DNA from: Escherichia coli
Lineage (GTDB): Bacteria > Pseudomonadota > Gammaproteobacteria > Enterobacterales > Enterobacteriaceae
Strand: one strand, 5' to 3'
Length of the DNA stretch: 46,318 bases
Assembly: GCF_003334315.1 (NCBI RefSeq)
Contig: NZ_QOWR01000036.1
Shown: positions 9,995 through 10,524 of the stretch, piece by piece
Layout: each line of letters opens with the position of its first letter
How positions within the stretch are numbered: the first letter of the stretch is position 1
Made by a program: the position numbers and the translations under genes
The notes under the pieces: model-generated
Seen by the model: the letters and a program-made list of their open reading frames with translations, nothing else
Told to the model about the DNA's origin: nothing
Database searches by the model: none

Positions 9995-10524
9995 ATAAAC
10001 GCTCCATATACAAACAATACAGCCACGAAAGAGATGAGTCGTCAGACATTAAAAATGAAACTTATTAAATTGTCAGAGGTCTGTATTGAGTGTTAGTTGG
10101 AGGTGGGAAGGTGTCAATTTGGCTAATTTGCTAATGCTTTCGAATTGATAGATTAAAAATTGCATAGTTCTTATTTTATTTAAATATGAACTATGAGTTA
10201 TTGTTGCTTAATAAGAAAACTGTTTCTTTCAATAGGAAAATTATCATCATCATATTTAACAAAGAATAGCACTAATTGCTAAAAATCGAAGTTTATTAAA
10301 CCCCTTTTGCATCCATTAGTGTCTTTAGGAATATTCGCTATAAAATAAGGGTTGTGCTTAATGCTTTAAGAAAAATAGCAATTTTCCCTTGAATATAGTA
10401 CTGGTGATGGAACGATGAATCTGCAAGCTGGCTTTTAACAAGCCAGCTCTAAAAGAAGGGAAATAAGAATAACTATACTCAAAAACTAACAGCCACGGTC
10501 ATCATGATGTGGCTGTCAATGAAA

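What the first reader, a model, noticed from the sequence alone, without database searches (positions are those of the whole stretch)
9995..10524. Long AT-rich leader upstream of the autotransporter
A 530-bp AT-rich intergenic region lies between the autotransporter start and the lsrK 3' end. Regions like this upstream of adhesin genes are typical sites of nucleoid-protein silencing; here it contains only very short ORFs (for example a 27-aa MNYELLLLNKK... frame).
Basis: inference. Interest (0 to 1): 0.2.

Follow-up and report, generated by a model that had tools for sequence, protein, structure and literature searches.

The report
H-NS-bound adhesin promoter region with MarA site
This AT-rich gap in E. 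coli is the already documented, H-NS-bound control region of a cryptic adhesin gene; it also holds the terminator of the neighbouring lsrRK operon and a conserved binding site for the antibiotic-stress regulator MarA, so it is ordinary rather than new.

Summary
Window 9995-10524 is a 530-bp gap, 32% G+C against 48% for the window, between the start of the yneO/ydeK ("ECSE_1600 family") autotransporter and the 3' end of lsrK. It holds only short ORFs with no sign of coding constraint.

The locus is already in the literature. It is one of 78 published E. coli K-12 "promoter islands" and is scored H-NS-bound in all ChIP studies compared there. RpoD and RpoS holoenzymes bind it in genomic SELEX. 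An identical sequence in ETEC H10407 carries a MarA ChIP-seq peak, with its marbox at window 10269-10283.

It is a composite, not a 530-nt leader:
- 10382-10524 is the lsrK 3' flank, with an intrinsic terminator.
- 9995-10381 is an upstream module that travels with the autotransporter into Pseudocitrobacter.

What I add from that cross-genus comparison:
- An invariant TTGACA-17-AACACT promoter, implying a leader of about 88 nt.
- An invariant last 45 nt of the untranslated region plus the ribosome-binding site.
- A perfectly conserved marbox within roughly 61%-identical DNA.

The window's autotransporter is frameshifted. My verdict is already known and low interest. The modest open question is whether MarA counter-silences this adhesin.

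The parts
10489..10516 (-). Stem-loop of the lsrRK operon's intrinsic terminator, starting 9 nt after the lsrK stop codon
   Evidence: ACAGCCAC-(12 nt)-GTGGCUGU. The 61-nt context folds at -19.7 kcal/mol, z = -3.95, and 0 of 200 shuffles fold as well. It is invariant in 7 E. coli lineages. The tool's terminator scan missed it because the loop exceeds 8 nt.
10480..10488 (-). U-rich tail of the lsrRK terminator (UAGUUUUUG; the five T's are at 10481-10485)
   Evidence: Read directly from the sequence. Two lineages delete the TAG, which brings the T-run next to the stem.
10426..10448 (.). Second hairpin (9-bp stem, 5-nt loop) with no U tail on either strand; function unknown. It lies in the E. coli-only part of the gap.
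   Evidence: It folds at -17.7 kcal/mol on the minus strand, z = -3.9. In other E. coli lineages the stem carries unpaired changes and no compensatory ones. It lies outside the region homologous to Pseudocitrobacter.
9995..10381 (-). Upstream regulatory module that travels with the autotransporter (G+C 0.297). It overlaps most of the published 'promoter island', roughly window 10081-10425.
   Evidence: Homology to the Pseudocitrobacter autotransporter upstream regions begins sharply at about 10381 and runs to the ATG. Island coordinates 1596197_345 come from PMC3661553 and were converted using a recalled U00096.2-to-.3 offset of +1976.
10324..10381 (.). Conserved distal block A, about 85% identical across genera. 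It contains the inverted repeat CTTAA-N4-TTAAG (10357-10370) and the palindrome GAATATTC (10329-10336). Function unknown.
   Evidence: It is single-copy in E. coli genomes. In Pseudocitrobacter it lies about 29-86 bp upstream of the divergent paoA start, so it may belong to the paoABC promoter there.
10266..10285 (+). Marbox, a MarA/SoxS/Rob-type binding site: ATAGCACTAATTGCTAAAAA, core 10269-10283. It is in 'backward' orientation relative to the autotransporter, 275-289 bp upstream of the ATG.
   Evidence: It matches exactly the MEME site 'gcactaattgctaaa' of the MarA ChIP-seq peak assigned to yneO in ETEC H10407. That site bound purified MarA at 0.3 uM (PMC5684230 Table 1). The H10407 gap is 530/530 identical, and the site coordinates agree: 1717104-1717118 against the reported centre 1717112. 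It is the only match in the window. The consensus scan also recovers the known mar-promoter marbox, which serves as a positive control. 18 of 18 bases are conserved in Pseudocitrobacter.
10112..10117 (-). Predicted -35 hexamer TTGACA of the autotransporter promoter
   Evidence: Invariant in 9 aligned sequences from two genera and three genomic contexts. The 17-nt spacer after it varies in sequence but not in length.
10089..10094 (-). Predicted -10 hexamer AACACT (GACACT in two sequences). The implied transcription start is about 10082, giving a 5' UTR of about 88 nt.
   Evidence: The block (A/G)ACACTCAAnACAGAC is conserved in all 9 sequences. It matches the consensus at only 3 of 6 positions, though it keeps A2 and T6. 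The start site is inferred, not mapped.
10048..10076 (-). Published in-silico promoter assignment CTGACA-17-TTTAAT for yneO
   Evidence: Shimada 2014, PMC3946193; located. It is not conserved in Pseudocitrobacter, so I consider it the less likely core promoter.
9995..10035 (-). Invariant proximal 5' UTR, with the Shine-Dalgarno GGAG at 10002-10005, 7 nt before the ATG
   Evidence: A 51-nt run identical between E. coli and Pseudocitrobacter L018 covers 10035..9985; nearly all of this stretch is invariant across the 9 sequences, which differ only at a few scattered positions. There is no stable or covarying RNA structure: z = +1.79 and 0 compensatory pairs.
10186..10269 (+).
   Evidence: It has no Shine-Dalgarno sequence, and all observed substitutions are non-synonymous. 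Its stop codon overlaps the marbox.

Best explanation
The 530-bp gap is two things joined end to end.

(1) Positions 10382-10524 are the 3' flank of the lsrRK operon. It holds an intrinsic terminator (hairpin 10489-10516 plus a U-run) that stops lsrRK transcription before it reaches the autotransporter. A second hairpin of unknown role follows.

(2) Positions 9995-10381 are the autotransporter's own AT-rich (30% G+C) regulatory module, which has moved with the gene between genera.
- H-NS coats this module (published ChIP and SELEX binding data) and probably keeps the gene silent in laboratory conditions (inferred).
- RNA polymerase can bind the module (published SELEX).
- The core promoter is most likely the conserved TTGACA-17-AACACT, starting transcription near 10082 and giving an unstructured leader of about 88 nt with a strong GGAG ribosome-binding site (inferred from conservation).
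- A high-affinity MarA site about 193 bp upstream of that start is bound in vivo and in vitro (published) and is under purifying selection (shown here). I infer that it lets MarA or a paralogue such as SoxS, Rob or RamA relieve H-NS silencing, or drive an unmapped distal promoter.

In this window the regulated gene is itself broken by a 1-nt deletion.
For: Geometry and composition.

Terminator: -19.7 kcal/mol, z = -3.95; invariant in 7 lineages.

Identity of the locus: 529/530 to K-12 and 530/530 to ETEC H10407.

Published binding data:
- Promoter island, H-NS 'A = all studies' (PMC3661553).
- RpoD SELEX peak plus HNS flag (PMC3946193).
- RpoS SELEX peak in the ydeK-lsrK spacer (PMC5493296).
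- MarA ChIP-seq peak and in-vitro binding at 0.3 uM (PMC5684230).

Marbox:
- Exact match at 10269-10283.
- The core consensus occurs in only 0.7% of composition-matched resamples of the gap.
- The same scan finds the known mar-promoter marbox at 30930-30948.

Cross-genus footprint:
- Intact 1806-aa homologues in Pseudocitrobacter lie next to paoABC or bluR.
- Homology starts at about 10381.
- The marbox is 18/18 identical where the surrounding distal DNA is 61% identical. For a site fixed in advance, 0.61^15 is about 6e-4.
- The three substitutions in the bluR-context copy and the one in O157 fall at degenerate 'n' positions. The EC21Z variant equals the MarA-bound grxA/ybjC site.
- The -35, the 17-nt spacer length and the -10 are invariant, while the spacer sequence varies.
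- The Pseudocitrobacter intergenic regions are also AT-rich, 0.33-0.35 against 0.48-0.56 in flanking genes.
Against: - No transcription start, 3' end or expression data for this locus could be retrieved. The promoter, the leader length and the silencing are therefore inferred.
- The conserved -10 matches the consensus at only 3 of 6 positions.
- The marbox lies about 193 bp from the inferred start. By my recollection of Martin et al. 1999, that is far outside the class I and class II MarA geometries, and I found no good promoter at class I or II distance on either strand (and inspection).
- Sharma et al. did not test yneO transcription. Going by their discussion, yneO is not among the MarA targets shared with the SoxS ChIP-exo set.
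- Simple hexamer scans do not reproduce a 'promoter island': 0 sites against 2.2 expected, and 6 against 12.5 expected.
- The recalled H-NS 10-mer motif is not enriched beyond composition.
- Part of the cross-genus conservation could reflect recent horizontal transfer rather than selection.
Confidence: 0.75

Rival explanations
1. The region really is a long transcribed 5' leader. Transcription would start near the lsrK end of the gap, or read through from lsrRK, and about 400-500 nt of AT-rich RNA would carry post-transcriptional control such as a leader peptide, Rho-dependent attenuation or sRNA targets.
For: - A promoter-like site TTCATC-16-TATATT lies at 10419..10392 on the minus strand.
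- An RpoS-holoenzyme SELEX peak is assigned to this spacer.
- A 30-aa ORF (10165..10073) on the autotransporter strand stays open in 7 lineages.
Against: - A strong, invariant terminator sits directly after lsrK.
- Homology to other genera breaks at about 10381, so the candidate distal promoter is not part of the conserved module.
- The conserved TTGACA-17-AACACT lies only about 120 bp from the ATG.
- There is no Rfam hit.
- The 30-aa ORF is not conserved in Pseudocitrobacter: its region is about 50-70% identical and contains indels.
Confidence: 0.08
2. The region is a generic 'promoter island': AT-rich foreign DNA that traps RNA polymerase and H-NS non-productively, with no specific regulatory logic. 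The MarA site would be a fortuitous high-affinity match in AT-rich DNA.
For: - The locus is listed among the 78 promoter islands, which are reported to make only short abortive products (PMC3661553).
- MarA ChIP-seq peaks are not always near promoters.
- The gene is a pseudogene in K-12, H10407, the sampled O157:H7 strain, strain 300444 and this window.
Against: - The marbox is 18/18 conserved across genera in roughly 61%-identical DNA, and its substitutions are confined to degenerate positions.
- There are discrete conserved islands, including a -35 and -10 pair with fixed spacing.
- Six of eleven sampled E. coli loci, and the Pseudocitrobacter copies L021, L022 and L024, carry an intact 1806-aa gene.
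Confidence: 0.14
3. The gap encodes an unannotated small protein or small RNA, for example the 27-aa ORF, or a plus-strand transcript from the conserved TAAAAT (10341-10346) that ends at the 10426-10448 hairpin.
For: - Short ORFs stay open within E. coli.
- A -10-like TAAAAT on the plus strand is conserved in Pseudocitrobacter.
- A stable hairpin lies about 80 nt downstream of it.
Against: - The 27-aa ORF has no Shine-Dalgarno sequence and only non-synonymous changes.
- The hairpin has no U tail on either strand, decays without compensation in other lineages, and lies outside the conserved module.
- There is no Rfam match and no RefSeq feature.
Confidence: 0.03

Closest known systems
E. coli K-12 'promoter island' ydeK(-)/lsrK(-) (Panyukov & Ozoline 2013; PMC3661553)
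   Same: It is the same locus. The window is 529/530 identical to K-12, and the published island (345 bp) maps to roughly 10081-10425. Like the published islands it is AT-rich, H-NS-bound, bound by RNA polymerase, and next to a gene predicted to be foreign.
   Different: My simple -35/-10 consensus counts show no excess of promoter-like sites, and the PlatProm criterion could not be rerun. The comparison with Pseudocitrobacter shows discrete conserved elements rather than a uniform island.
H-NS-silenced autotransporter and adhesin promoters of E. coli (for example UpaC in CFT073 and Ag43/flu-type loci; recalled from the literature, not checked here)
   Same: A long AT-rich upstream region, a gene cryptic under laboratory conditions, and H-NS occupancy.
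   Different: For this locus only binding is documented. I found no hns-mutant expression data. The gene is frequently a pseudogene.
Marbox sites of the MarA/SoxS/Rob regulon (Sharma et al. 2017, PMC5684230; consensus AYnGCACnnWnnRYYAAAYn, recalled from Martin et al. 1999)
   Same: It matches 19 of 20 consensus positions, carries an in-vivo ChIP-seq peak, and binds in vitro at the lowest MarA concentration tested.
   Different: It lies about 193 bp upstream of the inferred start and 275-289 bp upstream of the ATG, outside class I and class II spacing. No MarA-dependent transcription has been shown.
Counter-silencing of H-NS by AraC/XylS-family activators bound far upstream (for example Rns/CfaD, ToxT, VirF, GadX; recalled)
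   Same: An AraC-family protein site inside an H-NS-covered AT-rich region, at a distance incompatible with direct polymerase contact.
   Different: This is purely an analogy. MarA is not known to me as a counter-silencer, and nothing here tests it.

Membership tests
Promoter island (Shavkunov/Panyukov/Ozoline) | A region of 300 bp or more with an extreme density of PlatProm-predicted transcription start points | tested here: inconclusive
   PlatProm is not available. Two proxy hexamer scans show no excess: 0 against 2.2 expected, and 6 against 12.5 +/- 4.6. The locus is nevertheless in the published list by coordinates.
Promoter island (Shavkunov/Panyukov/Ozoline) | RNA polymerase binding combined with very low productive transcription | not testable with these tools
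   Published RpoD and RpoS holoenzyme SELEX peaks lie in the spacer. Transcript data could not be retrieved.
H-NS-bound / xenogeneically silenced region | G+C well below the genome average over several hundred bp | tested here: met
   G+C is 0.321 (0.297 for 9995-10381) against 0.482 for the window, the lowest 1% of 530-bp windows.
H-NS-bound / xenogeneically silenced region | H-NS occupancy in vivo | not testable with these tools
   Published: scored as H-NS-bound 'according to all studies' compared in PMC3661553, with an HNS flag in genomic SELEX in PMC3946193. The recalled 10-mer nucleation motif is not enriched beyond composition.
H-NS-bound / xenogeneically silenced region | De-repression of the downstream gene when hns is deleted | not tested
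   No data were found in the searched literature.
Marbox (MarA/SoxS/Rob binding site) | Match to the asymmetric consensus AYnGCACnnWnnRYYAAAYn | tested here: met
   10266-10284 has 1 mismatch. The same scan recovers the mar-promoter marbox. The core consensus occurs in 0.7% of composition-matched resamples.
Marbox (MarA/SoxS/Rob binding site) | Bound by MarA in vivo and in vitro | not testable with these tools
   Published for a 530/530-identical sequence in ETEC H10407: a ChIP-seq peak at 1717096 and in-vitro binding scored +++.
Marbox (MarA/SoxS/Rob binding site) | Class I (backward, about -62) or class II (forward, overlapping the -35) position relative to a sigma-70 promoter | tested here: not met
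   It is in backward orientation at about -193 from the conserved promoter. No convincing promoter lies at class I or II distance on either strand (and inspection). The geometry rules are recalled from Martin et al. 1999.
Marbox (MarA/SoxS/Rob binding site) | Evolutionary conservation of the specified positions | tested here: met
   18/18 identical in Pseudocitrobacter within roughly 61%-identical DNA. Variants change only degenerate positions, or C4 to T, which is also seen in a MarA-bound site.
Intrinsic (Rho-independent) terminator of lsrRK | A G+C-rich hairpin immediately followed by a U-run, downstream of the stop codon | tested here: met
   The hairpin at 10489-10516 folds at -19.7 kcal/mol (z = -3.95) and is followed by UAGUUUUUG. 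It is invariant in 7 lineages. The 3' end has not been mapped.
cis-regulatory RNA leader / riboswitch / attenuator | Conserved secondary structure with covariation, or an Rfam match | tested here: not met
   No Rfam hit even at E <= 1. The 5' UTR is less stable than shuffles (z = +1.79), and 0 of 14 predicted pairs covary.

The most novel reading that the evidence does not exclude
The conserved distal marbox is a working switch. MarA is encoded 21 kb away in the same window and is induced by salicylate and antibiotic stress. Under this reading MarA, or SoxS, Rob or RamA, relieves H-NS silencing of the ECSE_1600-family autotransporter from about 190 bp upstream of the promoter. That would couple the multiple-antibiotic-resistance response to surface adhesion or biofilm in E. 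coli strains and Pseudocitrobacter that keep the gene intact, and it would be a MarA mechanism outside the classical class I and class II geometries.
Probability: 0.25. Interest if true: 0.4.

Novelty: already known. Interest (0 to 1): 0.2.

Why it matters
As found, it matters little. This spacer is already catalogued as an H-NS-bound promoter island, an RNA-polymerase SELEX site and a MarA ChIP-seq target.

The small added value is an anatomical map. It separates the lsrRK terminator flank from a 387-bp module that travels with the autotransporter between genera. It nominates a conserved core promoter that differs from the published in-silico one. It shows that the MarA box is under purifying selection, which makes MarA control of a cryptic adhesin a cheap hypothesis to test.

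Tried and rejected
- **Rfam** (E <= 1) over 9500-11000 gave only chance hits to eukaryotic families.
- **Tool promoter/terminator scan** found nothing. The terminator was missed because of its 12-nt loop. The conserved promoter was missed because its -10 matches at only 3 of 6 positions.
- **Small ORFs** were rejected as genes.
- **H-NS high-affinity 10-mer** (recalled consensus TCGATAAATT, up to 2 mismatches) was not enriched over composition.
- **Promoter-density proxy** did not reproduce the 'island' property.
- **Genome-contig scan** with a degenerate signal-peptide DNA pattern returned only one contig. It is 97% identical to E. coli and is filed under a 'Candidatus Nanosynbacter' MAG, presumably mis-binned, so it gave no outgroup information.
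- **Supplementary TSS and 3'-end tables** (Cappable-seq PMC4782308, Term-seq PMC9023263, ROSE PMC10301672) were not held or had no entries for these coordinates. The supplement of PMC5684230 had nothing on yneO.
- **Literature search** for 'UpaI' as a name for this autotransporter found nothing.
- **A class I or class II promoter next to the marbox** was looked for on both strands and none was convincing.
- **Block A (10318-10385)** has no second copy in E. coli genomes.
- **L020** is a fragmented assembly and was not used.

Full report
**What is there.** The window is E. coli chromosome. The minus-strand ORF 5333..9994 is the 5' part of the yneO/ydeK autotransporter, which RefSeq calls the 'ECSE_1600 family autotransporter'. 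The minus-strand ORF 10525..12117 is lsrK, followed by lsrR and the divergent lsrACDBFG. The gap between them is exactly 9995-10524, 530 bp. Its G+C is 0.321 against 0.482 for the window, which puts it in the lowest 1% of 530-bp windows, and 200-bp stretches inside it fall to 0.26.

**The locus is known.** The gap is 529/530 identical to K-12 MG1655 and 530/530 identical to ETEC H10407. Megablast finds it in 4225 of 5426 complete E. coli genomes, almost always as a single copy, and no feature is annotated in any of the 30 rows listed. Four published data sets address this spacer directly.
- Panyukov & Ozoline 2013 (PMC3661553) list 'ydeK(-)/lsrK(-) 1596197_345' among 78 'promoter islands'. They score it H-NS-bound 'according to all studies' compared there (Grainger, Kahramanoglou, Oshima) and associate it with a predicted foreign gene. 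Converted with a recalled offset, the island is roughly window 10081-10425.
- Shimada et al. 2014 (PMC3946193) report an RpoD-holoenzyme genomic-SELEX site in the yneO-lsrK spacer, a best-match promoter CTGACA-17-TTTAAT, and an H-NS site.
- Shimada et al. 2017 (PMC5493296) report an RpoS-holoenzyme site in the same spacer.
- Sharma et al. 2017 (PMC5684230) report a MarA ChIP-seq peak in H10407 assigned to yneO, with the site 'gcactaattgctaaa' bound by purified MarA at the lowest concentration tested.

That MarA site sits at window 10269-10283 (+), and it is the only match in the window. In H10407 it lies at 1717104-1717118, which agrees with the published site centre 1717112. ydeK also appears with the value 2.2 in the table of the section 'The CpxR regulon' in PMC2731931. 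I did not follow that up.

**Anatomy, lsrK side.** Nine nucleotides after the lsrK stop codon there is a hairpin (10489-10516) followed by UAGUUUUUG. It folds at -19.7 kcal/mol, z = -3.95 against shuffles, and it is invariant in seven E. coli lineages spanning 93.6-100% identity. This is the lsrRK intrinsic terminator. Its 3' end has not been mapped. A second hairpin (10426-10448; -17.7 kcal/mol) has no U tail on either strand. In other lineages it accumulates unpaired changes without compensation. I cannot assign it a function.

**Anatomy, autotransporter side.** A protein search with the first 400 residues found mostly E. coli and Shigella fragments, plus a few diverged relatives. Their contigs turned out to be Pseudocitrobacter. 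There, an intact 1806-aa homologue lies divergent from paoABC (L018, L021-L024; 417-bp intergenic region). In one contig a homologue lies directly downstream of bluF-bluR (L012).

Aligning these upstream regions with the E. coli gap shows that homology begins abruptly at about window 10381 and continues to the ATG. So 9995-10381 (387 bp, G+C 0.297) is a regulatory module that belongs to the autotransporter, and 10382-10524 belongs to lsrK. The Pseudocitrobacter intergenic regions are also AT-rich, 0.33-0.35 against 0.48-0.56 in their flanking genes.

Overall identity across the module is 67%, and 61% in the distal part. Conservation is concentrated in islands:
- Block A, 10324-10381, about 85% identical. 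It contains the inverted repeat CTTAA-N4-TTAAG and the palindrome GAATATTC.
- The marbox, with 18-19 consecutive identical bases at 10265-10283.
- TTGACA (10112-10117), a 17-nt spacer whose sequence varies but whose length does not, and (A/G)ACACT (10089-10094) followed by CAAnACAGAC.
- AATAAGTTTCATTT.
- The last 45 nt or so of the untranslated region, with GGAG 7 nt before the ATG.

**Inferences from the footprint.** The pattern of a conserved -35, fixed spacing and a conserved -10 is what a real sigma-70 promoter looks like. It predicts a start near 10082 and an 88-nt leader. The published CTGACA-17-TTTAAT (10048-10076) would lie inside that leader and is not conserved in Pseudocitrobacter, so I consider it less likely. 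The leader is less structured than shuffled controls (z = +1.79) and shows no covariation, and there is no Rfam match. It is therefore not a riboswitch-like or attenuator-like leader.

The marbox was defined beforehand by ChIP-seq, so its perfect conservation in 61%-identical surroundings is unlikely by drift (0.61^15 is about 6e-4). In the bluR-context copy the three differences fall on degenerate 'n' positions, as does the O157 variant. The EC21Z variant, GCATTAATTGCTAAA, is identical to the MarA-bound grxA/ybjC site. The core consensus turns up in only 0.7% of composition-matched resamples of the gap, and the same scan recovers the canonical mar-promoter marbox at 30930-30948. I conclude that the site is maintained by selection.

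**What remains unresolved.** The marbox is about 193 bp from the inferred start and in 'backward' orientation. That does not fit the class I or class II geometries as I recall them from Martin et al. 1999. I found no convincing promoter at those distances on either strand (and inspection). Sharma et al. did not test yneO expression. The most economical reading is that an AraC-family protein bound inside an H-NS-covered tract acts as a counter-silencer, or that an unmapped weak distal promoter exists. Both readings are inference.

My simple hexamer scans also fail to show an excess of promoter-like sites: 0 against 2.2 expected, and 6 against 12.5 expected. The recalled H-NS 10-mer motif is not enriched beyond composition either. 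The 'promoter island' label and the H-NS occupancy therefore rest on the cited papers, not on anything I could recompute. No transcription-start or 3'-end tables could be retrieved.

**State of the gene.** In this window the autotransporter carries a 1-nt deletion near 5339 relative to an intact 5421-nt allele, which truncates it at 1553 aa. It is also a pseudogene in K-12, H10407, the sampled O157:H7 strain and strain 300444. It is intact in six other sampled E. coli strains; in Pseudocitrobacter it is called full-length (1806 aa) in L021, L022 and L024, whereas the L012 copy is split into two ORFs. IS1 and Tn3-family insertions into the gap occur in some strains.

**Verdict.** The silencing idea is supported by existing binding data, but the 'leader' label is not. 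The feature is an ordinary and already documented H-NS-bound regulatory region joined to a neighbour's terminator. The only mildly interesting residue is the conserved, oddly placed MarA site.

Noticed in passing
window 4575-9994 (frameshift near 5339): The autotransporter in this window is a pseudogene. It has a 1-nt deletion at gene position 4656 relative to the intact 5421-nt allele of strain 300709, and only 4 differences in total. About half of the sampled E. coli strains carry independent disruptions.
   Followed up: partly
window 31028-32115 (marRAB); marbox 30930-30948 (-): The marRAB operon, which encodes the MarA protein that binds the gap, lies about 21 kb away in the same window. 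marA is at 31482-31865. The consensus scan recovers the operon's own promoter marbox.
   Followed up: partly
window 44559-44577 (-): A third marbox-like site, CTCGCACTCTGGATTAAAT, with 1 mismatch to the 20-mer consensus. It lies in the most AT-rich part of the window (about 44.3-46 kb; G+C as low as 0.29), where K-12 has the start of the Qin prophage. ydfK from K-12 was not found in the window.
   Followed up: no
window 10324-10381: Block A is about 85% identical between E. coli and Pseudocitrobacter and is single-copy in E. coli. It has the inverted repeat CTTAA-N4-TTAAG (10357-10370), the palindrome GAATATTC (10329-10336), and a conserved plus-strand TAAAAT (10341-10346). In Pseudocitrobacter it lies about 29-86 bp upstream of the divergent paoA, so it may be a paoABC promoter fragment carried along with the autotransporter.
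   Followed up: partly
window 10426-10448: A stable 9-bp hairpin (-17.7 kcal/mol) with no U tail. It lies between the lsrK terminator and the boundary of the autotransporter module. It is E. coli-specific and decays in some lineages. It could be a junction relic or a second RNA 3'-end structure.
   Followed up: partly
L012 (Logan SRR30400474 contig, Pseudocitrobacter) 2693-3000: In one Pseudocitrobacter contig the autotransporter sits directly after bluR. The homologous upstream module is cut off right at the marbox, which abuts the T-run of the bluR terminator. The gene there is split into ORFs of 485 and 1318+ aa. In E. coli, MarA also binds the neighbouring ycgF(bluF)<>ycgZ region, according to PMC5684230.
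   Followed up: partly
L011 (JARKOR010000214.1): A 25-kb contig filed under a 'Candidatus Nanosynbacter' metagenome-assembled genome is 97.4% identical to this E. coli locus. It is almost certainly a mis-binned Escherichia contig.
   Followed up: no
L003 (strain ST540) and L004 (strain L37): Mobile elements have inserted into this gap. In ST540 a Tn3-family/tet(A) resistance segment sits 315 bp upstream of the autotransporter. In L37 an IS1 has removed the promoter region and the 5' end of the gene.
   Followed up: no
window 34725 onward: The small RNA gene mgrR is present and identical to K-12; it is unrelated to the finding.
   Followed up: no
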